64,000 bases of DNA from a virus: the IMG/VR virus record IMGVR_UViG_3300045988_110026. The stretch is one strand, 5' to 3'. Under the pieces are notes generated by a model, which saw only the letters and a program-made list of their open reading frames with translations, had not been told where the DNA came from and searched no databases. Of this stretch, positions 36,662-64,000 are shown piece by piece. Positions within the stretch are counted from its first letter, which is position 1, and each line of letters opens with the position of its first letter. The position numbers were made by a program, and so were the translations under genes.

Positions 36662-37122
36662 TGTGAATCATATTTTCTTTCTCTCCCGCTGTCTTCCCCT
36701 ATCGGATTGTCCCATCCATATTTTACAGCCGTAGCTTTAAATAGAGGGAGTCCATAAAATGCATAATCATCCTCACTCCAGCCTTCAAGACCTTCTTCCA
36801 GAATGTAGTTCCACATCATCACACATTCAAACATCAAACTGGCTGATATTCCTCTCTGATTTAATGCCTTTTCAAAACCGAATCTTACGTCTTCTTCAAG
36901 CTGTTTCAGGACATTTTCTCTGGTAAATTCAACTACAGTACTGTTCCACTTTTCCTCGTTGTCATATTCTTCATTCGGCTCCATACCGAAATCCTTTATC
37001 ATGCTATATGGAACAAATTTAGCCAGTCTGTTAAAATCTCTACCGTCTAAACATTTTGATGTTAATTCTTTAAGTTGTTCTAATGTTTTCATAAGCAATT
37101 TTGTTTTATAGGTTAATCCCAT
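36655..37122 (-). CDS. hypothetical protein
   Basis: 155 aa; 10-bp overlap with the upstream NTase gene. Confidence 0.45.
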   Translation of the reverse strand: MGLTYKTKLLMKTLEQLKELTSKCLDGRDFNRLAKFVPYSMIKDFGMEPNEEYDNEEKWNSTVVEFTRENVLKQLEEDVRFGFEKALNQRGISASLMFECVMMWNYILEEGLEGWSEDDYAFYGLPLFKATAVKYGWDNPIGEDSGRERKYDSQC

Positions 37123-51558: not shown

Positions 51559-52368
51559 TTAAATACTTAACTCTTCAATGGTCAAGCCTTTTTCTTCTGC
51601 CCACTTTAACATCGTACATAATTCTGTTTCTGATTTATATTTCGGATCACGCCACGCCCATCCGTATTTATCCAAAACATAGTGATATAATTCGTCGGCT
51701 TCTGCTGTATGCACGTCATTGAATAAATACTCCGAACCTTCCGGTATAAGCATTTCTGTTGTTGCGAAATCGGAATACAACAAACATTCGTAAGCATATT
51801 CTGTTATTTCACTCCATGCTTCTCCGGCTTTAAATCCAAATTCTTTTACAAAAGCCAAAGTTAGATACATATTTAATAGTACTGCCGGATCATATCCTGA
51901 ATTTGGATTCTTTTCTATTATTTCTTTCTCAAACTCCTTTAGATTTTCGGGCCCGAAAAATATGTAGCCCTGAACTGATTTATAATTTACCTCAGCATAT
52001 CTTCTACATCTATCATCATCGATTATCTTACCAATGTTGGATAACAGCATCTGTCGCCACCCATCACAGAACTCCACCTCTACCTCCATCCAATCAGTAT
52101 CATAGTTATACTCTCTTGGGTGTCCGACTGATATCACCTTTATATCCTTTACACCATATACTAAAAGACGTTCTTTAACCTCGTCCGCCCATTTTTGCAC
52201 ATAAGGTATGAACGCATTACAATAAGAATCAAAATCAAAATTTGATTCTTCTTCATATTCCGGCATCTCATCATATTCCTGTGAAAAGAAATGACGCGGG
52301 TCTGCTACTGTTTCATAAAAACTTACGTTAATGAAACAAAATTCGTTGGTTGTTGTTTTTAATATCAT
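51559..52368 (-). CDS. hypothetical acidic protein
   Basis: 269 aa. Confidence 0.5.
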   Translation of the reverse strand: MILKTTTNEFCFINVSFYETVADPRHFFSQEYDEMPEYEEESNFDFDSYCNAFIPYVQKWADEVKERLLVYGVKDIKVISVGHPREYNYDTDWMEVEVEFCDGWRQMLLSNIGKIIDDDRCRRYAEVNYKSVQGYIFFGPENLKEFEKEIIEKNPNSGYDPAVLLNMYLTLAFVKEFGFKAGEAWSEITEYAYECLLYSDFATTEMLIPEGSEYLFNDVHTAEADELYHYVLDKYGWAWRDPKYKSETELCTMLKWAEEKGLTIEELSI

Positions 52369-52619
52369 AACTTTTTGTATTTACGTACATTTTTCTTGCC
52401 ATAGAATCTACACATGGCACGAATCTGACTATAAAATACTTTTGTCCTCCTGGCCTCAAAGTATTTAAACATTTCTTCATTCTTTGTCTCCCACACGTAA
52501 TCCGTTTGAGAACTTATGTGATTTTTATCTTTGCGTGAATAATGGTAATATGATACCACAACACGTTTCGCACCATTCTTTACAGGTACGATATTCACAT
52601 CTATGTTATTATCTGTCAT
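52365..52619 (-). CDS. hypothetical protein
   Basis: 84 aa. Confidence 0.4.
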   Translation of the reverse strand: MTDNNIDVNIVPVKNGAKRVVVSYYHYSRKDKNHISSQTDYVWETKNEEMFKYFEARRTKVFYSQIRAMCRFYGKKNVRKYKKL

Positions 52620-52653
52620 ATTATTATTGTTTTATGTATTATACAAATACAAA

Positions 52654-52681
52654 GAGCGCATACCTTCACAGGCCGGCGCTC
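52654..52681 (-). terminator. hairpin gagcgc...gcgctc; on the minus strand it is followed by TTTGTATTTG
   Basis: read directly; downstream of minus gene 52764..52973. Confidence 0.4.
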
Positions 52682-52763
52682 CTTTCAATAAAAATGAAAA
52701 AACTAACATTACATAAACATATTGTTTTCTGCTCTTTATTACAATACTTTTGTTCCGCAATTA

Positions 52764-52973
52764 TTATATCTTCCGTACTCTTTTTTTCGTATCATTCAAG
52801 ATTTCAAAAACCATCTTCTTGTGATCTTTGTTTGGTAACTTGTCTTTAACGGCCGATATTACACCCGCTATAGACGTAAAACCTGAATCTGTTATTGAAC
52901 ACAGCAATAATCCCCTTTCGTCGTCTGTGCTTATCGCTGACGCCTTTATAATATCATTCTTGTATATTCTCAT
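52764..52973 (-). CDS. hypothetical protein
   Basis: 69 aa. Confidence 0.4.
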   Translation of the reverse strand: MRIYKNDIIKASAISTDDERGLLLCSITDSGFTSIAGVISAVKDKLPNKDHKKMVFEILNDTKKRVRKI

Positions 52974-53379
52974 AATCTTTCGTTTTATTATCTACAAACT
53001 TATCCATATCGTCTCTTATTCTTTTTAGCACTCCGGCTATAATTTCCGGCATCTCTCCTTCGGTACGGTTCAGAGTTTCTATCACCCCATCAATCCTACC
53101 AATTTGACGCCATAAGAAATTGGCGTCTTTCGTATTAAATTTCCCCATCATGTTTTTACAGTAAACAACTTGCTTTTTCAAACACCAGTCTTGCGATTCT
53201 GAGAGTGAACACCGTTCGGAGTCGTTAAAAAATATACAATCTTTGCAGAACATAAGAGGGTCTTCGTCGTCACCAACCACTTTGACATCATACTCTATGC
53301 CATGCAATTTTAATCTAAATACATCTCCTACTTCTTTAGAAGACAAATCCATGTCCGGACCGAATGTTATTACTTCCAT
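52954..53379 (-). CDS. hypothetical protein
   Basis: 141 aa. Confidence 0.45.
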   Translation of the reverse strand: MEVITFGPDMDLSSKEVGDVFRLKLHGIEYDVKVVGDDEDPLMFCKDCIFFNDSERCSLSESQDWCLKKQVVYCKNMMGKFNTKDANFLWRQIGRIDGVIETLNRTEGEMPEIIAGVLKRIRDDMDKFVDNKTKDYENIQE

Positions 53380-53400
53380 ATAATTATGTTTTATTGTTTG

Positions 53401-53460
53401 TGAAATGCCCAGAATCGAACCAGGACCGACACATACATACCGGCACGCCGCGTCATCTCC
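53401..53460 (-). tRNA. tRNA-like element A (non-canonical, ~60 nt; T-arm CCTGG-TTCGATT-CTGGG)
   Basis: Minus-sense ...GGAGATG...CCTGGTTCGATTCTGGGCATTTCA-CA in a 175-bp gap. A 6/7-bp acceptor-like pairing is possible, but I could not fold D or anticodon arms by hand. No CCA. Confidence 0.35.
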
Positions 53461-53554
53461 TCTATGATACAGAAATAGACATGCCTATTCTCACGAACCG
53501 ACATGCCAAAACCCAAAAACTTAATTTGATGAATAAAATAGATTAACAAAAATA

Positions 53555-53869
53555 CTATCCTAATTCTTTTATAATATCTTTCACAATATTCAACCTTACC
53601 TCCTTCGTTTCTGGGCTAATACAACCAAACCACCCATAAAACGTTCTTGTTTCCTCTGGTTCTGTAGCCATACCTATCTTCTCCTCCAATTCCGGGAAAT
53701 ATATTCTCACCATTTCGTCTGAACGAAACTCATAAATATTTTTATGTTTTTTGAAATACATAAACACTACATTTCTTAACGCAACACATATGTATTCCCC
53801 ATCCTCTAACCTATCAATCATCTCATATACCTTTTTCCAAATGAATAATCGCTCTTCTTTTGTAAACAT
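53555..53869 (-). CDS. hypothetical protein
   Basis: 104 aa. Confidence 0.45.
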   Translation of the reverse strand: MFTKEERLFIWKKVYEMIDRLEDGEYICVALRNVVFMYFKKHKNIYEFRSDEMVRIYFPELEEKIGMATEPEETRTFYGWFGCISPETKEVRLNIVKDIIKELG

Positions 53870-53883
53870 ATCTTTCTTTATTT

Positions 53884-54225
53884 TTATGGTATTATTTGAC
53901 TGTATGCAGACTTTTCCATGTACACAACACTATGTTCCTGTCCAAGTATTTTCTTTGCTGCTTCTTTCTTTATCGCGCAATATCTCCCTGTACGATACGG
54001 ATTCTTTTGATCTGATCCATCCTCAACTTCGATAATAAAACAACCTCCGTCATCTATTATCTTTTTGCAATTGTCACATATTTCTCCCGTGCATATATGA
54101 TGCGGCGCCTGCCCTTTGATGTTATTCCCTAATAAAGCAATCCCCATCTCTTCACCGCATACTATGCATAGTTCTATGGATGGATTCAACCCATGCTCTG
54201 GATGCAATACAATACCGTCTTTCAT
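53884..54225 (-). CDS. Cys-rich zinc-binding protein
   Basis: CIVCG...CTGEICDNC. Confidence 0.45.
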   Translation of the reverse strand: MKDGIVLHPEHGLNPSIELCIVCGEEMGIALLGNNIKGQAPHHICTGEICDNCKKIIDDGGCFIIEVEDGSDQKNPYRTGRYCAIKKEAAKKILGQEHSVVYMEKSAYSQIIP

Positions 54226-54626
54226 TTTCTATCCTCCTTTATTAATTCTATTATAAACTTTTTATCTTGTTCCCACAATGGCAGCCCTTCTTTTACTGTG
54301 TATGCCACTGTTTCCCTCTCTCCTATTAATCGCACGGCAATCTCTCTTGCTTTCAAGTCATCCTCCTCATGCGATTTGTTTATTAAATCATAGGCACATG
54401 ATTCCACCTTTTGCCTTTCGATTATTATCGAACCCATTAACTCGCTTATATGCGATCCTAAAAACGATAAGACATTAATAGCTTTCCCAATATCATTTGA
54501 AATAGCACTTGCTAAATACATCTTATCCATATACTCCGGCAAAGCCTCGTATGCCGTTTCTATGTTTTTATACTGATTTTCGTTTACCTCCCTTTTAATC
54601 AGTTCTTCAAATTCTTCTTTTAACAT
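54222..54626 (-). CDS. hypothetical protein
   Basis: 134 aa. Confidence 0.45.
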   Translation of the reverse strand: MLKEEFEELIKREVNENQYKNIETAYEALPEYMDKMYLASAISNDIGKAINVLSFLGSHISELMGSIIIERQKVESCAYDLINKSHEEDDLKAREIAVRLIGERETVAYTVKEGLPLWEQDKKFIIELIKEDRK

Positions 54627-54650
54627 GTTCTTCCCTATTTTAATGTTGTG

Positions 54651-54730
54651 TGAGATCGCCGGAATCGAACCAGCCTACCGCACCATGAATCCCATAAAGC
54701 AAGTGCTCCGATCTTCGCAGATGGGAGCAC
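54651..54730 (-). tRNA. tRNA-like element B (T-arm GCTGG-TTCGATT-CCGGC) preceded by a 7-bp hairpin
   Basis: Minus-sense GTGCTCC-(14 nt)-GGAGCAC hairpin (54703-54730), then ~52 nt ending ...GCTGGTTCGATTCCGGCGATCTCA-CA. Not foldable by hand as a full tRNA. Confidence 0.35.
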
Positions 54731-54959
54731 TTTGTCTAAAGCATAAGAAAATTAATGAAGAAATTTTTCTCACTTACGCCATAGCATCTAAAATAGCTAT
54801 CAGCACTATTTCTATGACAAACATAATAGAAAATATCTTAAATGCCTTTTTCATATCGCTATCTCCTCCTTTTTTTTTTTTAGTTCCACAATAAACTGTT
54901 CCGGCTCTGCTCCGAACTACGTTCCACCTACAACCGCAGGCCTTAGCCCAAGGCGCCGC

Positions 54960-55220
54960 CTACTCCCCCTCTATGGCAGCCTGTTCGTACCTACAACACC
55001 AGTCTCCATCTATACAACTATTACTACGCGATAACAAACATTTATCCTTATAATAATCATAAAAAATACACCTCTCACAACTGTAATCCCTAATTTCTAC
55101 ACAGCTAACTACCTTAGCATATACTATACCATCACTGCCTTCTATTCCTTTCACCCCAAAAATAGAACCTTCTCCCTCCTTACTCAAATCTAAGTCAGGC
55201 GCAAAGTCATATACGTTCAT
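54960..55220 (-). CDS. hypothetical Cys-containing protein
   Basis: 86 aa. Confidence 0.45.
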   Translation of the reverse strand: MNVYDFAPDLDLSKEGEGSIFGVKGIEGSDGIVYAKVVSCVEIRDYSCERCIFYDYYKDKCLLSRSNSCIDGDWCCRYEQAAIEGE

Positions 55221-55294
55221 GTTGTTTATGTTTTAATTGTTATACATTCCGATTACTACTAATCTATAGAATATAGTTTTCAACTCTCAACCTA

Positions 55295-55462
55295 TTGAAT
55301 TTTGTAGAATAAACTCACATTATGCCGTTTTAAAGCACTGTAAGTCTTAATTTTGTAGGAAAACCCTACATAATGCTGTTTTAAAACGCTGATCTGTTGA
55401 ATTTTGTTGGCAGGAACTACATAACGCTGTTTTAAAACGCTGTAAGTCTTAATTTTGTGGGA
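55295..55462. repeat. tandem direct repeats, ~51-bp unit x ~3.3
   Basis: Units start at 55295, 55347, 55397 and 55449 (TTRAATTTTGTDG...ACATWAYGCYGTTTTAAARCRCTG...). Each holds a CGCTG-TTTTAAAA-CGCTG core. Confidence 0.7.
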
Positions 55463-55524
55463 AGGGAGTGCCCTCCCTCTCCCCCTCTCCAACTCCCGCT
55501 AATCCTCCGGCTTTCCGCATAGAA

Positions 55525-55656
55525 CCCACGCCCTACCGCCTCACTACCGGCATACGGAGAGCGCTACAAGCTTATACTCTGGCATGGAGTATGGGGGATT
55601 TGGAGATAATATCATTCCATAGAGAGAATAGAGAGCCTTCAGCCCACGCCCTACCG
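55525..55656. repeat. GC/pyrimidine-rich island with 14-bp direct repeat CCCACGCCCTACCG (55525-55538, 55643-55656)
   Basis: Local composition shifts sharply (CCCTCCCTCTCCCCCTCTCC at 55471-55490), and there is an exact 14-mer repeat 118 bp apart. Confidence 0.45.
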
Positions 55657-56154
55657 TCTGCTCCTCCTATCAAGATAGATATTCAAAACTATAATCAAAG
55701 CCAAAAACAAAAAGCAAAAGACCATCACAATATTATACTGATCTGGTCCGTACTCTAACATAGACCTTACTCCAACCGATAAAAAATACAGGTCAGCTAC
55801 TAATAAAAACCACCACATAAAATAAAAAATTTACAATAAGTATGTCCGAAAATACGGGTATTATAAAACCTAACTAATTGATAATCAAGCATACCTTATT
55901 TTTAAGAAAAATACAATAAGCCCAATTTTCAATCCATAGAGACGAAAAAGGCGGCATCCGACACCATATTTTGGGTCAGAAAACCGCCTACAGTTTCGTT
56001 TTAGACCAATTTTAACGACAATATATAGACAAAATACCGGCATTATATCCAAACAGCCTTATTTTTGTTTCGATTTGAACCAATATACGCATTCCTACCT
56101 TGTTTGTCGTCGTGTTCACTCTCAGAATATCCTACCCGTAAATAGAAAGAGTAG

Positions 56155-56197
56155 GATACAAAAATAGGGCTGCTCCGATATTCGAAACAACCCTATT
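56155..56197 (-). terminator. hairpin AATAGGG...CCCTATT, with a T-run on the minus strand
   Basis: read directly; downstream of minus gene 56203..56409. Confidence 0.45.
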
Positions 56198-56202
56198 CCT
56201 AT

Positions 56203-56409
56203 TTAAATACTGTTTATATTTTCCTTAACGTACGTTCTTGACGTATGAACTTTACGCTTGCACTTTTCTTTTCCGGTATCGGAATGATACGCCTCTTTGA
56301 GATCACGATACAACATAAATTCACGATACGCTCTTTTCCGCTTTTCTTTGGCTTCTTTCCTGGACAGACCGCGAACATCTACCATGTAAGATTTAAATTT
56401 CCTTTCCAT
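56203..56409 (-). CDS. small basic protein
   Basis: 68 aa, Lys/Arg-rich. Confidence 0.4.
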   Translation of the reverse strand: MERKFKSYMVDVRGLSRKEAKEKRKRAYREFMLYRDLKEAYHSDTGKEKCKRKVHTSRTYVKENINSI

Positions 56410-56431
56410 TTTCTTTATGCTTTAATTATGA

Positions 56432-56602
56432 TTAACCCCAGCGGTTAAGTGCTTCGATATAGAAACCTTCCGCCTCTTTGTACTCACTTTCGCTCAATGT
56501 TTCCACCGTCTCGATATAGTTACGCAATGTTATTTTTACGCAACTGTTTTTAGATTTATTGAACGCTTCAATTAAAGCGTTGATCATTGCTTTCTTTTCC
56601 AT
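56432..56602 (-). CDS. small hypothetical protein (56 aa, below ORF-track cutoff)
   Basis: Hand-translated MEKKAMINALIEAFNKSKNSCVKITLRNYIETVETLSESEYKEAEGFYIEALNRWG; sits 22 bp upstream of the next minus gene. Confidence 0.35.
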   Translation of the reverse strand: MEKKAMINALIEAFNKSKNSCVKITLRNYIETVETLSESEYKEAEGFYIEALNRWG

Positions 56603-56627
56603 GCTATTATATTATTTATAATTTAGA

Positions 56628-56688
56628 GGTTGCTCCGGAATCGAACCGGACGCGCATTCCTATCCTATAGAGATTTTATGCTACAACC
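56628..56688 (-). tRNA. tRNA-like element C (61 nt between acceptor-like halves; T-arm TCCGG-TTCGATT-CCGGA)
   Basis: Minus-sense GGTTGTAGCATAAAATCTCTATAGGATAGGAATGCGCGTCCGGTTCGATTCCGGAGCAACC-TCTA. Shares AAAATCTC with the tRNA-Cys anticodon region but appears to lack a D-arm. Confidence 0.35.
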
Positions 56689-57161
56689 AACAGCCCGTAA
56701 TTAGTACGTAGTTCTTGCGTACAGGCTCGTACTATGTTGTTATTATATTTTCCGTCCGCTACACAACTTAGCCACAAATAAAGGCGATTGTGTCCTTGCG
56801 TTTTGATACGGCACGTCCCTACATGGTAGGCTACATGCTTGTACCCTGTAATTTAATCTACAGCCTTGTTCTATTTTTCGTGTAAGCAAGTAAGACACGT
56901 TTCGATCTGGAGATAAACCTCGTACAACGGCATGTTTTCCAAACTGTAATCACATACCTAACATAAACCATACCTATTCGGATAGTCCATGCAGTAATAC
57001 CAGCCCTTTAATTGCCAACGGCAAGGGCAACGGTATATCTATCTCCAATATGTAAAATAACTCTCTGTTTTGTCAGCTTCAGTCTAAAGCATACGCGGGA
57101 CGTGCACCCACCAACAACGGCGCACAGACGCGTTTAAAGGTACGCGCCCAACCTTGTTTTT

Positions 57162-57764
57162 TCACTGCTGATTACTTTCGTGTGCTAAATACTCAGATAC
57201 GCACTTTGCAACGGTGCGGATAGAATAAGACTTAATCTTAACGGCCACATAAGTGGCTTTATATTCGTCCGTCTCTTTAACGATCCATTTTGCACTACTT
57301 TTCGTTTCCAACGTTTCCGCGGTTGCAAATCCGAAAGGCTTATACTCACCGCCATAAACTACATTATCGGAACACCAATCAGCCGTTTTTGCCTCAATTC
57401 CTTTCTCTTTATCTACTTTGCTATCCTTATATACTTTAGAGTATAGGGAAAACTTAACAAAGGTATCATCAACTTTTGGTAACATTTGGCTACACACAGC
57501 CACCAGGCGTTTTTTATCCTTGGCCAGAGATGCAACCTTTACAGCGTATTCTGCCGGTATTTCCAAGGCCTTGCAAATAGCCTTTAGATCAGCTCCATTA
57601 GCAAATAGAGCGTTGTACAGTTTAACAGCACCTACCAAATTTGCAGCATTTTCTTTGATAACGGCATTCTGTAGTTTGTTTACATTTTTTTTCGTAATCA
57701 TATCCCAATATATTTTAATTGTTAAACAAATGATATTCAAATTAATGACCCACAAAGCAGGCAA
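57162..57764 (-). CDS. hypothetical protein (start possibly at internal Met, 57701)
   Basis: 200-aa ORF; Ala/Lys-rich; follows a ~550-bp repeat-rich leader. Confidence 0.5.
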   Translation of the reverse strand: MPALWVINLNIICLTIKIYWDMITKKNVNKLQNAVIKENAANLVGAVKLYNALFANGADLKAICKALEIPAEYAVKVASLAKDKKRLVAVCSQMLPKVDDTFVKFSLYSKVYKDSKVDKEKGIEAKTADWCSDNVVYGGEYKPFGFATAETLETKSSAKWIVKETDEYKATYVAVKIKSYSIRTVAKCVSEYLAHESNQQ

Positions 57765-57927
57765 TTACAGATACATATATAGCCAGCCCAACGGGCACAC
57801 TATATAGGATCACTATGTTAACTCGTAATCTCTCTCGATCACGACGCAAATATACGACATTTATCAATATTACATATATATATGCTATATTTTTTTTGTT
57901 AACTTGTATTAATTTCGATTCTATTAT

Positions 57928-58076
57928 CTGATTATCAGTAAGTTACAAAAAACACAAGAGCAGTATTACACGCGTACATTAATATGTAGGATATATTCTT
58001 ATTTAAGTGGCTTATAATCAATAGGTTATAATAACACATTGATTATCAATAATTTAAATAAGTGATTGATAATCAG
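57928..58076. promoter_or_regulatory. cluster of TTGATWATCAA-type palindromes (57928-57938 CTGATTATCAG; 58039-58049 TTGATTATCAA; 58065-58076 TTGATAATCAG)
   Basis: Read directly. A fourth perfect copy, TTGATAATCAA, is at 55878-55888. Confidence 0.45.
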
Positions 58077-58097
58077 AGAGTTTGTGGGTTTGAGGTA

Positions 58098-58149
58098 AAA
58101 CGCGTTTCCGGTTTTCCAGCGAAGGGGGTGCGGGGGAGAAAACGCGTTT
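58098..58149. repeat. two copies of AAAACGCGTTTC(C)GG (palindromic core AAACGCGTTT) 42 bp apart
   Basis: 58098-58107 and 58140-58149. Confidence 0.45.
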
Positions 58150-58181
58150 CGGGGGCGGGAGGTTCGTGATAGGTACCCCCT

Positions 58182-58262
58182 CTCTCCCATCACATAAACC
58201 TCTTTCTCATATCTCTCCCATCACATAAACATTTCACCATTCCTCTCCCTCATCACATAAAA
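58182..58262. repeat. three phased 18-bp iteron-like direct repeats CTCTCCCATCACATAAAC (starts 58182, 58213, 58243; the third has a 1-nt insertion)
   Basis: about 31-bp periodicity, read directly. Confidence 0.55.
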
Positions 58263-58310
58263 ATATGGGGAACCTATCCAAAGTTCCCCATACTTATTTT
58301 ACGACGGTAA

Positions 58311-58703
58311 TTATTTACTTTCCCATATTAGTTTATCTTCGGCTATTCCGATCTTTACTTCCTCGCACTTTCTCCCTATCCATCCATTGAGATACGAGAA
58401 TGGTTCTGAGTTTTTTACTTCTTCTCCTAAGAAATTAAAAGCTTCAGTAGAAACATGGGATGCTTCATGGCAAACTGTTTCAAAATCAATTATTTTCTTA
58501 TTAAGAAACCATATCAAAAATCCCGTATTAGGATTTAATTTACACCCTCCGTATGGAACGGATACAGTTACAGCCTTGCTATTATCTACGTAACTAAAAT
58601 CGTTATTGAAACATTCTACCATGCCAGATACGTCTTTTCCTACGTATATCCACAGATTAAAAGGATAGACTTCCGGATAGAACTGATATAATTCACGCTT
58701 CAT
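58311..58703 (-). CDS. small HExxH-motif protein (putative zinc metallopeptidase-like)
   Basis: VCHEASHVSTEAF; 130 aa. Confidence 0.45.
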   Translation of the reverse strand: MKRELYQFYPEVYPFNLWIYVGKDVSGMVECFNNDFSYVDNSKAVTVSVPYGGCKLNPNTGFLIWFLNKKIIDFETVCHEASHVSTEAFNFLGEEVKNSEPFSYLNGWIGRKCEEVKIGIAEDKLIWESK

Positions 58704-59656
58704 TTCGATAAAAGTTTTTTACTTTCAAGGAAGTCCTTAAACTGGTCACTTGATACGTCTATAACGAATCCAGCAGCACCAGCATGTCCTCCACCACCGA
58801 ATCTCTTACTTACCTCACAGCAATCTACGCTGTCTTCTACGCATTCGTAAAGAGAGAACCTAACCTTACCACATGGCATGATACAAAATGGCATCAGAGC
58901 TTTAATTTTTCTACCGTCTAACCAGTCCGGTGTAAGAGAATCAAATACCTTAGAGCTAAATTCAGCGGTATTCATAGCCACTACCTTCACCTCGTCGACG
59001 TAAGCTTCGAACGAGTACCTACTTACCTCATCTTCGTTTTTACAAGCCATGTAATTAATTATAGCACGTCCTTCTTTAGCAAGATCATAAAAAATAAGAT
59101 CAATTTCATTGTCTTTCATGTTTTCTTTAAAGTGATCATATAAATACGACAATGCAATCAATACATTGAGTCTTATTTTTGATCTCAAGGCATACTGGAC
59201 AGCTACTACCGTATCCCAGCCTAAGCCAGATTCTTTATTCCACACATCGTAGTCTGACAGGCATCGGACGATCGCCGGCACCTTCCCCATCAGCAGGTCC
59301 GAAGCCAGTGCGCACGCACCGACACCGACCCTCCTCAACCCTGGAACTACGAACCCCCATGTCTTACTGTCCTCAATAATTCCCTTGTGGTGATCTATCC
59401 ACATCAGGCTCTTCCCTTCATCAAGCCACTTTTTGAAAACAGTTTTAGAATCGGCTCCAAAAGACACGTCAAGAACATAAACAACATCTAAGTCACGTAC
59501 TTGGTCAACAACTTTCTTAACATCATCTTCATACGAATACGGGATATAAACAACATCCTTGTTTTTACTGTTTTCGTACATGGTTGCGATGGCTGCCGAT
59601 ACAACGCCATCTAAATCCGATTTATGATAAACTATCGCTGTTTTCTTTACTTTCAT
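58700..59656 (-). CDS. DHH-DHHA1 phosphoesterase (NrnA/DhhP-like)
   Basis: HKSDLDGVVSAA (motif I DxD), WIDHHKG (DHH), C-terminal GGGHAGAAGF (DHHA1 GGGH). Confidence 0.75.
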   Translation of the reverse strand: MKVKKTAIVYHKSDLDGVVSAAIATMYENSKNKDVVYIPYSYEDDVKKVVDQVRDLDVVYVLDVSFGADSKTVFKKWLDEGKSLMWIDHHKGIIEDSKTWGFVVPGLRRVGVGACALASDLLMGKVPAIVRCLSDYDVWNKESGLGWDTVVAVQYALRSKIRLNVLIALSYLYDHFKENMKDNEIDLIFYDLAKEGRAIINYMACKNEDEVSRYSFEAYVDEVKVVAMNTAEFSSKVFDSLTPDWLDGRKIKALMPFCIMPCGKVRFSLYECVEDSVDCCEVSKRFGGGGHAGAAGFVIDVSSDQFKDFLESKKLLSK

Positions 59657-60563
59657 GATATAAGCTTGTATATTTGATACTACCGTCTTTTAATGTTTCT
59701 ATTTTTATAACATCACTATATGAATTAAAATTCTGATCTTTATCAATCCTTATATTCAGCACATCATCTACGGTTGCAGTTTTTCCATCATCGGTTTCAA
59801 TCTTATAAAAATCTTTTAAAGTGATTTTTATATTAAGACCAACCCCATATGGATTTTCAAGGATATATATATGATCGTTGTTTAGAATAACTATTCCTTC
59901 ACTTGTATGTTCTTTGGACAATACATATTCTAAATCAAGATCTTTATCCAAAAATGTAGTAATATCCATATAGTTAATACCGGAATTATAGGCACATACC
60001 TTATCCGAATCAGAGAACTGCCCTGGCAGACCACTGGCGTCCCCGACCATCAACGAACATCCCTTAAGTTGACTGAAGTTCATACCGCGCATTACCGTGT
60101 CTTTACACTTCATAAGAATATCATCAATCATGCCCGTATTAGGCTTCCTCATCGGATTTTGTTCGTCATTTGAATAACACAACCTTTTTTCATATAGGAC
60201 GCCTCTTATACCTCTCTTTACCGCCAGATCATGTACGGACCTCAGTACGTATTCTATCTTAGCTTCAATATCAGCTCCAGAAACAAACCCAGCTTCTACT
60301 CCTCCTTGATTGCTTACGATAGCAAATACCTTAACACCGTTCTCCTGCATGAGGTCAAGAGCCTTATTCACCACATCCATCTTAATCCTCATATCTGTCA
60401 AGTCTGTAGCGAACGTATTCCCAGAAGCGGTTTCTATAAGCGTTCCATCAAAATCAAACAATAATATTCGTTTGGATTTTATATCAATATCTTGTACCAT
60501 ATCATTCTCCTTTCTCAAACTTACTTTTCTTAATCTCTCTCGGAACCAGGCAGAACACACCAT
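59622..60563 (-). CDS. HAD-IIIA phosphatase of PNK-3'-phosphatase / GmhB type with extra C-terminal domain
   Basis: LLFDFDGTLIE (DxDGT), IVSNQGG, RKPNTGM, MVGDASG; about 140 aa of unassigned C-terminus. Confidence 0.7.
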   Translation of the reverse strand: MVCSAWFRERLRKVSLRKENDMVQDIDIKSKRILLFDFDGTLIETASGNTFATDLTDMRIKMDVVNKALDLMQENGVKVFAIVSNQGGVEAGFVSGADIEAKIEYVLRSVHDLAVKRGIRGVLYEKRLCYSNDEQNPMRKPNTGMIDDILMKCKDTVMRGMNFSQLKGCSLMVGDASGLPGQFSDSDKVCAYNSGINYMDITTFLDKDLDLEYVLSKEHTSEGIVILNNDHIYILENPYGVGLNIKITLKDFYKIETDDGKTATVDDVLNIRIDKDQNFNSYSDVIKIETLKDGSIKYTSLYHESKENSDSLS

Positions 60564-60924
60564 CTTCGTCCTTAACCTTCACAATATCATAAACCGCATA
60601 CTGATTATCACCGATATCCCAACCTAACGAAGACAGTACATCACGGAGGTAAATACGTCTATATTTATCACCTTGTTTATTTAATAAAAACGATCTCTCG
60701 TCTTCTACCTTAGAAGGAGCTATATACAAATTAGAATCCAACACCCCTTTAAACTCAGCTCCTTCTTCCATACCAATAATAACCGCATCTTCGATACCCA
60801 TCCATTTCAGATTGTCCACCGATATGGTCATAATCCGATCTTTGCTAATAGAAAGCTTTCTGATTTTAGCTTCTTTTGTCTTAGAACCTACATAGGTTTT
60901 ACTGCTTAAAAAGTTTATCTTCAT
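60502..60924 (-). CDS. hypothetical protein
   Basis: 140 aa; overlaps the downstream gene by 62 bp. Confidence 0.4.
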   Translation of the reverse strand: MKINFLSSKTYVGSKTKEAKIRKLSISKDRIMTISVDNLKWMGIEDAVIIGMEEGAEFKGVLDSNLYIAPSKVEDERSFLLNKQGDKYRRIYLRDVLSSLGWDIGDNQYAVYDIVKVKDEDGVFCLVPREIKKSKFEKGE

Positions 60925-60931
60925 GATATAA

Positions 60932-60989
60932 TGTTTTTAAATTGTATCGCAAATATACGCAATAATATAAACAATACAATTTAAAAACA
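60932..60989. repeat. 16-bp perfect inverted repeat TGTTTTTAAATTGTAT / ATACAATTTAAAAACA with 26-nt spacer
   Basis: read directly; sits between minus genes 61004..62209 and 60502..60924. Confidence 0.55.
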
Positions 60990-61003
60990 ATTAAAATATG
61001 ATA

Positions 61004-62209
61004 TTATAATACAGGTAATTTTTTGAACTGCTCTGGAGCCACCTCGGATATGATTCCACGGAAAGCAAGACGCGAACCGAAGTACGAACTCGCGCTCAAC
61101 GCGTTGCGAGACGCATACGCATACGCCACGCCACTACTCGTATCCGAGCCGCTATAGGAGCGCGCCAAAACAATGGAGTTGCTCGATGTCTGACTATAGT
61201 AATCTGAATAATGCATGGAATCGTTACCGCCAACATTTGTCGGCACCACATCGAAAAACGGACCGTTTTCCGCTGCGATATTCGTTATCCAGCCATTGGA
61301 AGTTCCGGCGTTCACATTGCGAGTCGATCCGTCTGGGTCGGTGATTTTCCAAACTCGGTTGTTGATTTCTACACCTTCAACCCATTCATAGATACCACCA
61401 AAAACCCCTTCCAAACCTAAGCCGCAAACGTACTTTGAACTTTCGTTTTTGGTATCCGCACCGCCGGTTGCGTTGCTGCTTCCCGTTGTTGTAGCCGGAT
61501 TATTATTTGCGCCACCTAATCCTAATACAGATTGAATATTACGTGTTTTGTACTTAGCATACAACATCATAGCAATCACGCAATGTTGTTGAAAATCTAT
61601 CATCTGAAACCCGGTACCACGCGCTTTCGCATAACCTTCAAAATCGTTGAATGATTTTGAAGTTGTAGGACTAACACCACTCCAGCTATATAATCCATTC
61701 AAAGATACATATCCTTTATATGCTCCAACAAGAGATTCCGGAACATGAATGTAAGTGCCATCGATATCATGATCAGCAAAATGATAAAGAAATCTATTAT
61801 CATCCACCTTATACCATTTATACCAAAATTCTAAGAAAACGACCATCACATCACCTTCTGGTCCGGTAAGAACAGCCGGACTGCCATCAAGATATAAGTT
61901 ACTGTCGCTATCTTTTAACCTACATACAAAAACCTCTCTTCCTCCCATAGCGCTCTTGCAAAGAACTCTATAAAATCCACTTGTAATCAACCTGTATAAA
62001 AAATCGCCATCTTCACTTATTGTTATATTAGCCGGATCTGATACAGATTTATCAAAAACTATAAAATTATCAGTAGGGAGATTACCCCCCCCCACTATTT
62101 TATTAAAAAATCTTCTTCTCATGATTGTCTTATATTTTAGGTCAAATATAGATTTTAATTTATAAACATGAATAATATGATTTTCGTGTAATAAACTTAT
62201 ATTTGTCAA
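61004..62209 (-). CDS. protein with FGE-sulfatase / C-type-lectin-fold-like C-terminal region (possible fibre or receptor-binding protein)
   Basis: GVFGGIYEWVEG and C-terminal ...SYFGSRLAFRGII resemble FGE / DUF1566-type motifs; Gly/Ser/Asn/Thr-rich central region. Confidence 0.45.
   Translation of the reverse strand: MTNISLLHENHIIHVYKLKSIFDLKYKTIMRRRFFNKIVGGGNLPTDNFIVFDKSVSDPANITISEDGDFLYRLITSGFYRVLCKSAMGGREVFVCRLKDSDSNLYLDGSPAVLTGPEGDVMVVFLEFWYKWYKVDDNRFLYHFADHDIDGTYIHVPESLVGAYKGYVSLNGLYSWSGVSPTTSKSFNDFEGYAKARGTGFQMIDFQQHCVIAMMLYAKYKTRNIQSVLGLGGANNNPATTTGSSNATGGADTKNESSKYVCGLGLEGVFGGIYEWVEGVEINNRVWKITDPDGSTRNVNAGTSNGWITNIAAENGPFFDVVPTNVGGNDSMHYSDYYSQTSSNSIVLARSYSGSDTSSGVAYAYASRNALSASSYFGSRLAFRGIISEVAPEQFKKLPVL
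62198..62205 (+). promoter_or_regulatory. -7 promoter element TATATTTG (TAnnTTTG) for the + gene at 62241
   Basis: 36 bp upstream of ATG. Confidence 0.45.
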
Positions 62210-62224
62210 GATATTAATTAACTA

Positions 62225-62232
62225 CAAAATTA
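62225..62232 (-). promoter_or_regulatory. divergent -7 element TAATTTTG (minus strand) 16 bp upstream of minus-gene start 62209
   Basis: reverse complement of CAAAATTA read directly. Confidence 0.4.
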
Positions 62233-62240
62233 TTTATGTC

Positions 62241-62897
62241 ATGGCAGAAATGAAAATAGGTTTTGTAACCTTCAATCCAGGATCAGGTGATGGTGATCAG
62301 GCGGTTACCGTATCAGGTGAAAAATACGAAGGTCGTGTACAGCGCACGCAACAAGTAGAATTTGGTGCCGAATCCGGGGGCGTTAAGAAAAGTGCTACCA
62401 TAAACCAATCTCCGGCAGCTGAGTTTGTAAAAATAGATCCTACTGCATCTGTAGGGAAAGAAGGTGGTACTGTAACAATCAACGGTACAAGTAACTCAAC
62501 TAAATTAACGTTCTCTTTAACTCCGGACGAGACTCATCCTCTGACGTTAGAAATACCTGCCAGTTATCAAGCGGCAGGCAAGGCTACCAACAACGGCGCT
62601 GTTATTGCCGACGACCCTGGTGCAACAGGATCTTTCGCTTTCAGTATCGTATTCTCCGATATTGCAGAGAACGCTGATGTAAACGATCTGGTAAATACTC
62701 TTAAGGTGACGGCCTCCGGTGGTCAGACAGCCAATACGGTTATTACCCAGACAGCAGGTGATCCGTTCTTGGAAATAGACAAGAATGTAATCAACTTGGA
62801 TGCAAACGGTACTCCTCAGACTATCAACGTTAATGCAAACATCAAGTGGACTATCACGCAAGCTGTTTCTAAGTTGGTAAGGAAAGTAATGAAATAA
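62241..62897 (+). CDS. Ig-like / BACON-like repeat protein
   Basis: Three beta-rich repeats (VTFNPGSGDGDQAVTVSG; GGTVTINGTSNSTKLTFSL; TPQTINVNANIKWTI). Lone + gene with its own promoter and terminator. Confidence 0.5.
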   Translation: MAEMKIGFVTFNPGSGDGDQAVTVSGEKYEGRVQRTQQVEFGAESGGVKKSATINQSPAAEFVKIDPTASVGKEGGTVTINGTSNSTKLTFSLTPDETHPLTLEIPASYQAAGKATNNGAVIADDPGATGSFAFSIVFSDIAENADVNDLVNTLKVTASGGQTANTVITQTAGDPFLEIDKNVINLDANGTPQTINVNANIKWTITQAVSKLVRKVMK

Positions 62898-62910
62898 CAA
62901 TCACTTACAG

Positions 62911-62948
62911 AAAAAGAAAAGGGACGTCTATTTGGCGTCCCTTTTTTC
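62911..62948. terminator. bidirectional rho-independent terminator (A-run, GGGACG...CGTCCC hairpin, T6)
   Basis: AAAAAGAAAAGGGACGTCTATTTGGCGTCCCTTTTTT. Confidence 0.6.
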
Positions 62949-63197
62949 TATGCATTGTATGTAGTATTTATCTTTTTGCCTACTGACAAAAATCTTTTTG
63001 AAAATCATCTGTTTCCTGATATGGACTCTTTTCCCGTCATCTAATTCCCTCCATATTTCATTAAAGATCAAATCTATTAATTCCATGACCTTCTTATCAG
63101 AGACAAGATTCTTTCTACCGGGACTGACCCATCCATCATCAGTCATCTTACCGGCTATCCTATTAGCTATCCTGCTTAATTCACGTGGGGTGCTCAT
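62928..63197 (-). CDS. hypothetical protein
   Basis: 89 aa; its 3' end overlaps the terminator hairpin. Confidence 0.4.
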   Translation of the reverse strand: MSTPRELSRIANRIAGKMTDDGWVSPGRKNLVSDKKVMELIDLIFNEIWRELDDGKRVHIRKQMIFKKIFVSRQKDKYYIQCIEKRDAK

Positions 63198-63886
63198 TTT
63201 AATATACCTTTAAATATTCTACCTTTTTCACACTGAAGTATGCAGTCTCTCATGGGATGATCCTGTTCATGATCGTCACACATCGGAAATTCTTTTCCAT
63301 AGGGGAAAGCAATGTGCGGGCACTGCGCCCTGAACGCATCCCAGGCCGACTTCCTCACAGCCTCAGCTCCGGCACGCACGCCTTTCTCTCTTTCCTTGGC
63401 CGGGTCAGCATACACGTTTGAAATAGCTCTTTTCTTCCAAGTAAGCATATTGTAGTAAAACTTATCCACCAGTTTCCTACCCACTACATCAAACTTCTGT
63501 CTATGAATTAAAGGTGCTACCTTAACGACGTTCTTCCTATTTTTACTAACATCGACATAAATCAGCCCGGCATAAGACGGAACTTCATTTACGTCAATCA
63601 TATTAGGCGGACAGGCGTAGTAGAAATAGTTTGGAGGATAGCTTATGACACCACCTACCTTAATAATGCCGTCCTTAAGAACTTTATGTTTTTTATCCTT
63701 TTTGAAGTCGTTAAAGAAATCTTGTTTAGACATCTTGACCTCTACTTCATAAGCGTACAATGATCTTGTTATGGCCAGGAAGTCAGATTCCCAATCATAT
63801 ATATGGAGATTGTTAATAACATACATCGGATTACTTAGCAGATCCCTATTAAGGATCTTAAGCATTTGTTGCTCTGGGTAGTTCAT
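63194..63886 (-). CDS. hypothetical protein
   Basis: 230 aa. Confidence 0.5.
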   Translation of the reverse strand: MNYPEQQMLKILNRDLLSNPMYVINNLHIYDWESDFLAITRSLYAYEVEVKMSKQDFFNDFKKDKKHKVLKDGIIKVGGVISYPPNYFYYACPPNMIDVNEVPSYAGLIYVDVSKNRKNVVKVAPLIHRQKFDVVGRKLVDKFYYNMLTWKKRAISNVYADPAKEREKGVRAGAEAVRKSAWDAFRAQCPHIAFPYGKEFPMCDDHEQDHPMRDCILQCEKGRIFKGILK

Positions 63887-63903
63887 TGTCTTACTTTTTT
63901 TAG

Positions 63904-63975
63904 AGGCTTGTGGCGGAATCGAACCGCCCTACGAGATTTTGCAGATCCCTGACTAAACCACTCATCCAACAAGCC
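63904..63975 (-). tRNA. tRNA-Cys (anticodon GCA), 72 nt, CCA not encoded
   Basis: Hand-folded. Acceptor GGCTTGT/ACAAGCC; D-arm with GG; anticodon stem GGGAT/ATCTC with loop CTGCAAA; T-arm GGCGG-TTCGATT-CCGCC; discriminator T. Confidence 0.75.
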
Positions 63976-63978
63976 ATG

Positions 63979-64000
63979 TAGCCCAACCGGGAGTCGAACC
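63979..64000 (-). tRNA. 3' part of a second tRNA, truncated by the window edge
   Basis: Minus-sense ...GG-TTCGACT-CCCGG-TTGGGCT-A: T-loop, T-stem 3' strand, acceptor 3' strand and discriminator are visible. Confidence 0.55.

What the first reader, a model, noticed from the sequence alone, without database searches (positions are those of the whole stretch)
53401..56688. Three short (~55-61 nt) elements with a near-perfect tRNA T-arm but no foldable D/anticodon arms
Each sits in a small intergenic gap on the minus strand. Each ends with a 5-bp stem / TTCGATT loop / 7-nt acceptor-like 3' strand. None ends in CCA: A and B end ...TCA-CA and C ends ...ACC-TCTA. C shares AAAATCTC with the bona fide tRNA-Cys anticodon arm. 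The only acceptor-like pairings I could find by hand, in A and C, give lengths near 60 nt, too short for a tRNA with a D-arm. B is directly preceded by a 7-bp hairpin. They may be degenerate or mini tRNAs, tRNA-derived decoys for host anticodon nucleases, or 3' tRNA-like processing signals (RNase P/Z entry sites) that punctuate the long polycistronic transcript.
Basis: seen in the sequence. Interest (0 to 1): 0.55.

Follow-up and report, generated by a model that had tools for sequence, protein, structure and literature searches.

The report
Anticodon-less tRNA-like elements in phage
Three short elements in a human-gut phage keep only a tRNA's acceptor stem and T-arm, sit 21-31 bases upstream of genes, and are held in shape by selection in over 150 related phage contigs. 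They most likely act as cut-here signals for tRNA-processing enzymes and do not decode.

Summary
The 64-kb window has exactly four perfect T-arms, all on the minus (coding) strand: tRNA-Cys plus elements A (53400-53460), B (54650-54694) and C (56627-56688). Shuffles give 0.28.

None is a tRNA. ARAGORN in every mode and Rfam RF00005 fail, even on 120-nt stretches. No element has room for both a D arm and an anticodon arm, and none has a 7-nt anticodon loop.

Each is an acceptor stem (6-7 bp) stacked on a T-arm, joined by a 13-32-nt linker. All three are conserved in phage csAssE-Sib and in over 150 IMG/VR gut contigs. Of 33 alternative base-pair types, 28 keep pairing, against about 11.5 expected neutrally. 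T-loop positions 54-58 are essentially fixed, while parts of the linkers drift or are deleted.

No bacterial tRNA shares B's 3' half. Each element ends 21-31 nt before a start codon, as tRNA-Cys does (16 nt), and the following gene varies between genomes.

Best reading (confidence about 0.45, not shown experimentally): tRNA-derived minihelices kept as RNase P / RNase Z processing signals. The closest analogues are plant-mitochondrial t-elements and mascRNA. Functional mini-tRNAs and anticodon-nuclease decoys are rejected. A role as stable acceptor-end mimics remains open.

The parts
53400..53460 (-). Element A, a tRNA-like minihelix. Acceptor 5' strand 53454-53460; linker 53425-53453 with a dispensable 7-bp hairpin at 53426-53443; T-stem 53420-53424 / 53408-53412; T-loop TTCGATT 53413-53419; acceptor 3' strand 53401-53407; unpaired C at 53400.
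   Evidence: Alignment A2 of 42 distinct sequences keeps 95.6% of cells paired, against 24-56% for slid controls. The hairpin is deleted in L039 and L068.
53380..53399 (-). A-rich leader between A and the ATG at 53379. The first ~14 nt (CAAACAATAAAACA, counted from the unpaired C at 53400) stay with the element whichever gene follows.
54650..54694 (-). Element B, the minimal minihelix. Acceptor 5' strand TGGGATT 54688-54694; 13-nt linker 54675-54687; T-stem 54670-54674 / 54658-54662; T-loop 54663-54669; acceptor 3' strand GATCTCA 54651-54657; unpaired C at 54650. It carries G2-C71, G3.U70 and G4-C69.
   Evidence: In alignment A3 of 35 distinct sequences the acceptor stem is invariant and the T-stem is 100% paired, with CG/UG/UA exchanges. 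The linker's 3' half varies freely.
54627..54649 (-). Leader between B and the ATG at 54626. The first ~13 nt (CACAACATTAAAA, counted from the unpaired C at 54650) are conserved with the element.
54701..54732 (-). Hairpin 6 nt upstream of B: a 9+4-bp stem with a GCGA tetraloop, followed by UUGCUUUA. It could act as a 3'-end protector or a weak terminator.
   Evidence: three pairs with compensatory changes, 98.7% of cells paired.
56627..56688 (-). Element C, tRNA-like with one central arm. Acceptor 5' strand GGTTGT 56683-56688; central arm 56654-56681 (GCAT/ATGC stem plus an inner 4-bp hairpin with a 5-nt loop); T-stem 56646-56650 / 56634-56638; T-loop 56639-56645; acceptor 3' strand GCAACC 56628-56633; unpaired T at 56627.
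   Evidence: Alignment A4 of 27 distinct sequences keeps 99.7% of cells paired. Double changes occur at two T-stem pairs and one inner-hairpin pair. L189 has a GTAA tetraloop in place of the 5-nt loop.
56603..56626 (-). Leader between C and the ATG at 56602.
56692..56727 (-). 8-bp long-range hairpin directly upstream of C.
   Evidence: helix 1: 99.5% of cells paired, with UA to CG/UG exchange.
63903..63975 (-). The genuine tRNA-Cys(GCA), used as comparator. It has the same T-loop, encodes no CCA, has the trailer T-CTAAAAA, and the next ATG lies 16 nt downstream (63886).
   Evidence: RF00005, 46.3 bits.

Best explanation
A, B and C are remnants of phage tRNA genes. They have lost the D and anticodon arms but keep, under purifying selection, the coaxial acceptor-stem/T-arm 'top half' of a tRNA.

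They are transcribed as part of the long minus-strand gene block. There they would fold into minihelices that the host's tRNA-maturation enzymes recognise. RNase P would cut at the 5' edge, and RNase Z or an equivalent 3' activity would cut after the unpaired base that follows the acceptor stem. The polycistronic RNA would thus be cut 21-31 nt ahead of the next start codon.

The expected products are three. First, an upstream mRNA that ends just after a hairpin. Second, a downstream mRNA with a short, A-rich, unstructured leader. Third, a 45-62-nt minihelix by-product that may receive CCA.

What is shown: the structure, the conservation, selection on the helices, the position and the strand. 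What is inferred: the cleavage and its effect on expression.
For: 1. Only the module that RNase P, RNase Z and the CCA-adding enzyme need is retained: an 11-12-bp acceptor+T stack with a canonical T-loop. Acceptor-stem/T-stem/T-loop model substrates are cleaved efficiently by bacterial RNase P at the canonical site (PMC11143913).

2. There is selection on that module. 28 of 33 alternative pair types keep pairing, against about 11.5 expected (none of 200,000 simulations reached 28). Paired cells are 95.6-99.7%, against 24-56% in slid controls. T-loop positions 54-58 are fixed and position 59 is free, with one U55C exception. B's linker and A's hairpin drift or are deleted. In sequences sampled through a neighbouring gene (though the elements were then located with patterns on their 3' parts), diversity (pi) of the first 20 nt from the T-stem into the acceptor 3' strand is 0.003-0.035, while flanking genes run from 0.04 to 0.34.

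3. Many stem pairs are G.U, so the fold exists only in the minus-strand (sense) RNA. No T-arm occurs on the other strand in 78 related loci.

4. The position is constant: at the 3' end of each gap, 21-31 nt before the ATG, whichever gene follows. The real tRNA-Cys has the same relation to its downstream gene, at 16 nt.

5. A hairpin precedes each element. Those before B and C show pair-preserving or compensatory changes.

6. There is precedent. Plant mitochondrial t-elements were found with the same GGTTCRANYCC screen. They have a conserved T-arm on a non-canonical body and define mRNA ends through RNase P/Z (PMC1920247).

7. Orphan minihelices in the same position occur in unrelated viral contigs, e.g. 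L283, with an 11-nt linker and an ATG 23 nt downstream.
Against: - No RNA-end data exist, so cleavage is not shown.
- The family is one tight clade (about 87-95% nt identity). Covariation is therefore mostly one-sided G.U exchange, and B's acceptor stem never varies.
- Whole stretches of the A and B intergenic gaps are as conserved as the elements, or more so. Some of the conservation may therefore reflect promoters or recombination sweeps.
- Each element can be lost: 4 of 33 genomes lack A or B.
- The acceptor stems of A and C have only 6 clean pairs, and nothing in them clearly replaces the D-loop at the tRNA elbow. Only an invariant GG in each linker could do so, and that is an inference.
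- If a promoter sits in the A gap, A would lie in a primary 5' UTR rather than between cistrons.
Confidence: 0.45

Rival explanations
1. Stable trans-acting tRNA mimics. The elements are excised, given CCA and accumulate as anticodon-less minihelices. These would occupy or be modified by factors that read the tRNA acceptor end or T-arm. They might be alanylated through G3.U70, like a tmRNA tRNA-like domain without the message. Or they might soak up host toxins that attack tRNA 3' ends.
For: B has G2-C71, G3.U70 and G4-C69 in all 35 distinct sequences. A has G.U at 3:70 in 39 of 42. The related genome csAssE-Sib carries a PNK3P-type phosphatase, a DHH phosphodiesterase, a nucleotidyltransferase-like protein, a Ro60/Rsr gene and a YrlA-like RNA. 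That shows heavy investment in tRNA and RNA-repair biology. The T-loop and acceptor stem are the most conserved parts.
Against: The window's own A has A3-U70, so the G.U is not strictly kept. The unpaired base after the stem is C, not the A73 of tRNA-Ala. Position 1:72 is a mismatch in A. The G.U could be a drifted G-C of a tRNA-Gln-like ancestor. The fixed distance to the next ATG and the conserved leader are not explained by a trans role. No Rfam tmRNA or YrlA match goes beyond the T-arm.
Confidence: 0.2
2. Uncleaved cis-acting 5'-UTR structures. The tRNA-like fold stays on the mRNA and either stabilises its 5' end or recruits a tRNA-binding factor (ribosome, EF-Tu, a T-arm modification enzyme acting as chaperone) to boost translation of whatever gene follows.
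For: The spacing of 21-31 nt to the ATG is constant, and a leader segment stays with the element across different downstream genes. The most conserved stretch of the A gap lies upstream of A and could hold a promoter, which would make A part of a 5' UTR.
Against: There is no pairing between the elements and the start regions. The retained module is precisely an RNase P/Z substrate, so escaping cleavage would need explaining. No promoter was demonstrated: the sigma-70-type scan was not above the shuffle expectation.
Confidence: 0.15
3. Functionless relics. These are recently decayed tRNA pseudogenes that look conserved only because the clade is young, or because they act as short homology patches where gene cassettes recombine.
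For: The elements are restricted to one tight clade. A more distant phage with a 57%-identical neighbouring gene has none. Cassette insertions and deletions begin 12-14 nt after each element. A B/A recombinant (L045) and losses of A or B exist.
Against: Substitutions are strongly biased toward keeping pairs: 28 of 33, against about 11.5 expected. Variation is concentrated in the linkers while the T-loop and acceptor stem stay fixed. Three separate loci have converged on the same reduced architecture. 29 of 33 genomes with enough sequence downstream of C keep all three.
Confidence: 0.12
4. Integration-site debris. These are copies of the 3' part of a host tRNA gene, as carried by phage attP sites or left behind by integrating elements.
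For: T-arm plus acceptor 3' strand is what att-site tRNA fragments look like (PMC9897764).
Against: Each element also has the complementary 5' acceptor strand. B's 21-nt T-arm/acceptor 3' half matches no tRNA gene in 185,579 representative bacterial and archaeal genomes. The single hit is the same phage sequence in a 3.9-kb contig of a metagenome bin labelled Veillonella. No integrase appears in the csAssE-Sib annotation.
Confidence: 0.02

Closest known systems
Plant mitochondrial t-elements (Hanic-Joyce 1990; Forner et al. 2007, PMC1920247)
   Same: They were found by the same GGTTCRANYCC T-arm screen. They have a perfectly conserved T-arm plus an acceptor-like stem on a non-canonical body and do not decode. 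They sit next to mRNA 5' or 3' ends, and RNase P/Z cleavage defines those ends. The excised element can receive non-templated C/CC/CCA.
   Different: They occur in organelle genomes, not in a dsDNA phage. Their processing is partly shown experimentally, whereas here it is inferred. The phage elements are even more reduced (B has a 13-nt linker) and always lie 21-31 nt before a start codon.
mascRNA / MEN-beta tRNA-like ends, and MHV68 viral tRNA-like TMERs (from my own knowledge)
   Same: These are tRNA-like folds embedded in longer transcripts. RNase P and/or RNase Z cut them to mature the flanking RNA. The small by-product gets CCA and is not aminoacylated. MHV68 is a viral example.
   Different: They are eukaryotic or nuclear. 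Most keep a shortened anticodon arm and a D-like arm. None is known to punctuate bacterial-type operons.
Mitochondrial tRNA punctuation, and tRNA genes embedded in phage or bacterial operons (T4 tRNA cluster, tufB and secG-leuU operons; from my own knowledge)
   Same: tRNA excision separates flanking RNAs. The tRNA-Cys-to-gene junction in this same phage has the same geometry as A, B and C.
   Different: Those punctuation marks are working tRNAs. These elements have lost the decoding half.
tmRNA tRNA-like domain and synthetic alanine minihelices
   Same: Acceptor stem plus T-arm without an anticodon arm, with a G.U at 3:70 in B and in most copies of A.
   Different: There is no mRNA-like domain, no pseudoknots and no encoded CCA. 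The unpaired base after the stem is C rather than A. Rfam tmRNA models match only the 17-nt T-arm.
Bacterial and phage Y RNAs of the YrlA type (PMC4201824)
   Same: These are tRNA mimics with a canonical T-arm. The same phage lineage encodes Ro60/Rsr and a weak YrlA candidate.
   Different: YrlA has the order T-arm, closed acceptor-like hairpin, D-arm, all inside a Ro-binding stem, and lies next to rsr. A, B and C have an open acceptor stem, no D-arm and no Ro-binding stem. In csAssE-Sib they lie about 72-76 kb from rsr around the genome, and they give no RF02553 match.

Membership tests
Canonical tRNA (Rfam RF00005) | Cloverleaf with a D arm and an anticodon arm with a 7-nt loop | tested here: not met
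   Only 29, 13 and 32 nt lie between the acceptor 5' strand and the T-stem. Loops are 4-5 nt and vary in sequence. ARAGORN in default, intron and mitochondrial modes makes no call.
Canonical tRNA (Rfam RF00005) | Covariance-model score at or above gathering (29 bits) | tested here: not met
   RF00005 gives no match at E<=10 on 116-126-nt stretches around each element. tRNA-Cys scores 46.3 bits.
Canonical tRNA (Rfam RF00005) | T-arm: 5-bp stem, G53-C61, T54-T55-C56-R57-A58 | tested here: met
   Across the family only position 59 varies, apart from one U55C copy.
Armless / D-armless mitochondrial-type mini tRNA | An anticodon stem with a 7-nt loop (U33, purine 37) is retained despite loss of an arm | tested here: not met
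   A has a 4-nt loop and its hairpin is deleted in L039 and L068. B has no hairpin. C has a 5-nt loop (CTATA/GTACA/GTATA/ATATA), or GTAA in L189. ARAGORN -mt makes no call at these sites.
t-element-like tRNA-like processing signal | Conserved GGTTCRANYCC T-arm on a non-canonical body with an acceptor-like stem | tested here: met
   B and C match GGTTCRANYCC exactly; A reads GGTTCGATTCT, differing at the last base because its 52:62 pair is G.U. The definition is taken from PMC1920247.
t-element-like tRNA-like processing signal | Lies in the sense strand of a longer transcript, next to a gene end | tested here: met
   Same strand as all flanking ORFs, and 21-31 nt before the next ATG. That it is actually transcribed is inferred.
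t-element-like tRNA-like processing signal | RNA 5'/3' ends coincide with the element borders; cleaved by RNase P / RNase Z | not testable with these tools
   No transcript-end data or enzyme assay is available.
YrlA / bacterial Y RNA (RF02553) | Order T-arm, closed acceptor-like hairpin, D-arm inside a Ro-binding stem; encoded next to rsr | tested here: not met
   Open acceptor stem, no D-arm, no RF02553 match. In csAssE-Sib, rsr lies at 73091-74725, about 72-76 kb from the elements around the genome, and has its own weak YrlA candidate at 72601-72705.
tmRNA (RF00023) tRNA-like domain | G3.U70 in the acceptor stem | tested here: inconclusive
   Present in B (35/35) and in A (39/42) but not in the window's own A or in C. 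The numbering depends on the unknown 5' end.
tmRNA (RF00023) tRNA-like domain | mRNA-like tag reading frame and pseudoknots between the two halves of the tRNA-like domain | tested here: not met
   Linkers are 13-32 nt. Rfam tmRNA models match only the T-arm, at 6-10 bits.
att-site / integration-derived tRNA gene fragment | Sequence identity with the 3' part of a host tRNA gene | tested here: not met
   The genome-contig scan with B's 21-nt 3' half gave one hit, which is the same phage sequence. Only B was tested.

The most novel reading that the evidence does not exclude
A previously unrecognised class of phage-encoded, anticodon-less tRNA minihelices. They would be excised, CCA-tailed and accumulate as 45-62-nt RNAs acting in trans. 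They might be alanylated via G3.U70, as a 'message-less tmRNA domain'. Or they might act as sponges for host defence toxins or enzymes that target the tRNA acceptor end or T-arm. The class would extend to unrelated phages, given the orphan minihelices seen in L283, the L260 group, L292 and L248.
Probability: 0.15. Interest if true: 0.8.

Novelty: new variant of a known kind. Interest (0 to 1): 0.55.

Why it matters
If the elements are RNase P/Z entry sites, this phage lineage punctuates its operons with stripped-down tRNA modules. That is the strategy known from mitochondria and a few eukaryotic and herpesviral transcripts, but I know of no description of it for tailed phages.

It would explain why phage tRNA genes so often sit inside operons. 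It would show what remains once the decoding function is lost. It would also give a compact, portable 45-nt processing tag (B) that works upstream of interchangeable genes.

It flags a blind spot as well. tRNA finders and Rfam both miss these elements, and the annotated genome csAssE-Sib lists an ORF over A and another over the 5' half of C. Preliminary hits in unrelated viral contigs suggest the class may be wider.

If the elements instead act in trans as acceptor-end mimics, they would be a new kind of phage counter-defence or translation-interference RNA.

Tried and rejected
- **Ordinary tRNAs missed by hand-folding.** Rejected by ARAGORN in default, -i, -mt and lowered-threshold runs. At ps80, C appears as 'tRNA-Pro agg', but among 23 calls of which 22 are evident noise. 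Also rejected by RF00005. The whole-window Rfam 'gathering' run missed even tRNA-Cys, so only the sensitive runs count.
- **Thermodynamic folding alone.** Uninformative: z-scores from +0.8 to -1.3 for the elements. For B the minimum-energy fold prefers an alternative extension of the T-stem, but family variation at the linker positions breaks that extension.
- **Split tRNA, intron-containing tRNA, tmRNA.** No supporting partner or match was found.
- **YrlA / Y RNA.** The topology and location do not fit.
- **Host tRNA / attP.** The genome scan was negative.
- **More distant relatives for acceptor covariation.** The protein-anchored search and the homologue search returned only the same clade, plus one distant phage without elements. 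L246 turned out to be a clade member with a chimeric protein.
- **A joint covariance model of A+B.** Abandoned. MAFFT aligns B's linker ATGGTGCGG with A's ATGGCGCGG, which puts the acceptor strands out of register.
- **Function of neighbouring genes.** Pfam and PHROGs gave nothing informative for the downstream small proteins.
- **The 'CCA-adding enzyme' annotated in csAssE-Sib.** Its window homologue (37113-37790) is supported only as a nucleotidyltransferase-like PHROG hit. It has no Pfam or PDB sequence match.

Full report
**Context.** The window is part of a ~151-kb tailed phage from the human gut. Its closest GenBank relative is phage csAssE-Sib, OR575929.1. Identity is 93.6% over window 52007-56087 and 87% over 56001-64000, and the window runs across the ends of that linear record. 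The finding lies in a long block of minus-strand genes. In csAssE-Sib that block runs from replication genes through a tRNA cluster (Met, Gln, Arg, Cys), then an MmcB-like gene, a PNK3P-type phosphatase and a DHH phosphodiesterase, into dozens of small hypothetical genes.

**They are not tRNAs.** ARAGORN calls only tRNA-Cys in default, intron and mitochondrial modes. Only when the threshold is lowered to noise level (23 calls) does C appear as 'tRNA-Pro'. On 161 related loci ARAGORN calls only Cys, Arg, Gln and Met. Rfam's tRNA model gives nothing at E<=10 on 116-126-nt stretches around each element but scores tRNA-Cys at 46.3 bits. The fast-filter whole-window run missed even tRNA-Cys and is therefore not evidence. 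tRNAscan-SE was not available.

**Anatomy.**
- **A (53460->53400):** GGAGATG, a 29-nt linker containing a 7-bp hairpin with a 4-nt loop, then CCTGG-TTCGATT-CTGGG, CATTTCA and an unpaired C.
- **B (54694->54650):** TGGGATT, the 13-nt linker CATGGTGCGGTAG, then GCTGG-TTCGATT-CCGGC, GATCTCA and an unpaired C.
- **C (56688->56627):** GGTTGT, A, one central arm (GCAT...ATGC with an inner 4-bp hairpin and a 5-nt loop), GCG, then TCCGG-TTCGATT-CCGGA, GCAACC and an unpaired T.

So each element is the acceptor/T-arm 'top half' of a tRNA, 11-12 stacked base pairs, joined by a short linker. None encodes CCA, but neither does tRNA-Cys.

**Conservation and selection.** DNA-pattern scans of IMG/VR found the A/B 3' motif in more than 118 loci and the C motif in 66. 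A scan anchored on the DHH phosphodiesterase gene, which does not depend on the elements, returned 161 relatives, of which 80 were kept, all 92-100% identical in protein. Of 33 such loci with at least 5 kb downstream of C, 29 carry C, B and A, three lack A and one lacks B.

On alignments of distinct sequences (A2, A3, A4), my structures keep 95.6%, 99.3% and 99.7% of cells paired, against 24-56% when partners are slid. Changes are mostly G-C/A-U to G.U exchanges. Double changes occur at two T-stem pairs and one inner-hairpin pair of C, at one acceptor pair of A (G4-C69 to A-U), and at three pairs of the hairpin upstream of B.

Counting alternative pair types in the tRNA-like helices only, 28 of 33 keep pairing. 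A simple transition-biased single-substitution model expects about 11.5, and none of 200,000 simulations reached 28.

Variation is concentrated elsewhere:
- The 3' half of B's linker reads CGGTAG, CAGCAA, CAACAG or AAATAG in different copies.
- A's hairpin is precisely deleted in L039 and L068, which leaves a B-like 15-nt linker.
- C's loop sequence varies, and in L189 it is replaced by a GTAA tetraloop.
- In the T-loop only position 59 varies, apart from one U55C copy.

In the sample drawn through the neighbouring gene (the elements were then located with patterns on their 3' parts), the first 20 nt from the T-stem into the acceptor 3' strand have pi 0.003 (B), 0.035 (A) and 0.032 (C). Flanking genes run from 0.04 to 0.34. 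Because many pairs are G.U, the fold exists only in the minus-strand RNA, which is the sense strand of the genes.

A caveat applies. This is one tight clade, and parts of the A and B gaps outside the elements are equally conserved or more so.

**Origin.**
- C shares with tRNA-Cys the string AAAATCTC and the 3' end CC-T-CTAAA.
- B starts with T1 like the phage tRNA-Gln, and its linker ATGGTG..GGTAG resembles that tRNA's D region.
- A and B are paralogues: 77% identity over 35 nt from the T-stem into the leader, with ATGG(C/T)GCGG shared in the linker.
- B's 3' half occurs in no tRNA gene of 185,579 representative bacterial and archaeal genomes. The single hit is the phage itself, in a short contig of a metagenome bin labelled Veillonella.
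- Together with the presence of a complementary 5' strand, this rules out att-site debris.
- A more distant phage with a 57%-identical neighbouring gene has no such element.

**Position.** Each element sits at the downstream end of its gap. Its acceptor 3' strand ends 21-31 nt before the next ATG, with rare exceptions at 12, 39 and 48 nt. The first 12-14 nt of the A-rich leader stay with the element while the gene that follows changes:
- After A: MRIYK... (about 77 aa), MEVITF... (82 or 141 aa) or MMGEF...
- After B: MLKEEF... (134 aa) or MKDGI... (113/115 aa).
- After C: MEKKAM... (56 aa), MERKFK... (68 aa) or MKTMTE...

A B/A recombinant (L045) and deletions starting in B's leader (L239) show that the paralogous leaders also recombine. 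The genuine tRNA-Cys has the same geometry, with 16 nt of A-rich trailer before the next ATG. Hairpins lie 3-13 nt upstream of each element. Those before B and C show pair-preserving or compensatory changes.

**Interpretation.** The retained module is what RNase P, RNase Z and the CCA-adding enzyme need. Acceptor/T-stem/T-loop model substrates are cut efficiently by bacterial RNase P at the canonical site, and RNase P is known to cut phage RNAs and operon mRNAs (PMC11143913). Plant mitochondrial t-elements are the closest precedent. They were found with the same T-arm motif, have a non-canonical body, and define mRNA ends through RNase P/Z (PMC1920247).

I therefore favour tRNA-derived punctuation signals. 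These would free a hairpin-ended upstream RNA and a short-leader downstream mRNA. The structure, the selection and the position are shown. The cleavage is inferred. Confidence is about 0.45.

The main rivals are as follows:
- **Trans-acting acceptor-end mimics.** The G2-C71/G3.U70/G4-C69 triplet in B and most copies of A, together with the lineage's Ro60/Rsr, YrlA-like RNA, PNK3P and DHH genes, keeps this open.
- **Uncleaved 5'-UTR structures.**
- **Functionless relics or recombination patches.**

Mini-tRNAs and anticodon-nuclease decoys are rejected because there is no anticodon loop. YrlA membership fails on topology and location (PMC4201824).

**Wider occurrence (exploratory).** A scan of IMG/VR for GGTTCGAATC-N8-TCACA gave 55 loci, 47 of them outside ARAGORN calls. 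Most are chance matches, but 18 orphan sites (13 distinct sequences) have perfect T-stems, about 20-fold more than chance predicts. Several combine a 6/7 acceptor pairing with a linker too short for D plus anticodon arms:
- L283: 11 nt, same-strand gap, ATG 23 nt downstream.
- L260, L265, L267, L271 and L273: 29 nt.
- L292: 36 nt.
- L248: 40 nt, with tetraloop hairpins.

RF00005 gave no match at E<=1 at any of the four orphan sites in this list that were included in that search (L248, L260, L271, L283, L292 and L294 were searched). This hints at a broader class but was not followed through.

Noticed in passing
csAssE-Sib OR575929.1 72571-74725 (L243:22571-24725), outside the window: A Ro60/Rsr gene is preceded by a weak YrlA match (RF02553, 28.5 bits, E=0.0024, at 72601-72705) and by two tRNAs (Tyr, Lys). 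Each of the three units follows a GGTGA(T)GG...TACTTCG motif. This may be a phage Y-RNA/tRNA array.
   Followed up: partly
window 55298-55458: A 51-nt tandem repeat, 3.2 copies, lies in a ~900-nt stretch (about 55230-56140) without long ORFs. Many IMG/VR contigs of the family end here, and the GenBank record's ends map to about 56087-56100. This could be a genome terminus, a packaging site, an origin, or an assembly break. It lies between C and B.
   Followed up: partly
window ~56150-56200 (-): A 10-bp hairpin (AATAGGGTTG...CAGCCCTATT) followed by TTTTG. It looks like an intrinsic terminator ending the two-gene unit downstream of C. The tool's terminator scan missed it because the loop is 15 nt.
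   Followed up: no
window 54704-54717, 54908-54921, 56171-56184: The motif CG(A/T)A.(A/T)TCGGAGCA (minus-strand reading) recurs inside three different hairpins: the one upstream of B, a terminator-like hairpin, and the terminator after C's genes.
   Followed up: no
window ~53481-53560 (-), upstream part of the A gap: This is the most conserved stretch of the whole region (pi 0-0.03 over about 80 nt, against about 0.1 in the flanking gene). It includes TATTTTTG and a near-palindrome, AATAGGCATGTCTATT. It may be a promoter or operator. csAssE-Sib annotates a 52-aa ORF across it and across A, which is probably spurious.
   Followed up: partly
window 54774-54854 (-): A 26-aa hydrophobic ORF (MKKAFKIFSIMFVIEIVLIAILDAMA) with a strong GGAGG site lies just upstream of B's hairpin. 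It is far more conserved (pi 0.003-0.05) than the gene before it (0.16-0.34).
   Followed up: no
window 52954-53379, 54222-54626, 56432-56602 (-), and loci L045, L239, L172: The first gene after each element is a present/absent or swapped cassette across the family. The B and A leaders recombine (L045), and some genomes lack A or B.
   Followed up: yes
L283:5015-5037(-), L260:7316-7338(-), L271:10817-10839(+), L292:7080-7102(+), L248:11370-11392(-): Unrelated viral contigs carry orphan T-arm plus acceptor elements with linkers of 11-40 nt. ARAGORN and RF00005 do not call them, and all are followed by CAA. L294 also carries a phage tmRNA (3971-4349, 56.9 bits).
   Followed up: partly
window 63991-64000 (-): GGTTCGACTC at the very edge of the window is the T-arm of the next tRNA of the cluster (tRNA-Arg in csAssE-Sib). 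It is cut off by the window end.
   Followed up: no
whole window, Rfam 'gathering' run: The default fast-filter Rfam scan of the 64-kb window returned nothing, not even the 46-bit tRNA-Cys. Negative results from that mode should not be trusted for short RNAs.
   Followed up: yes
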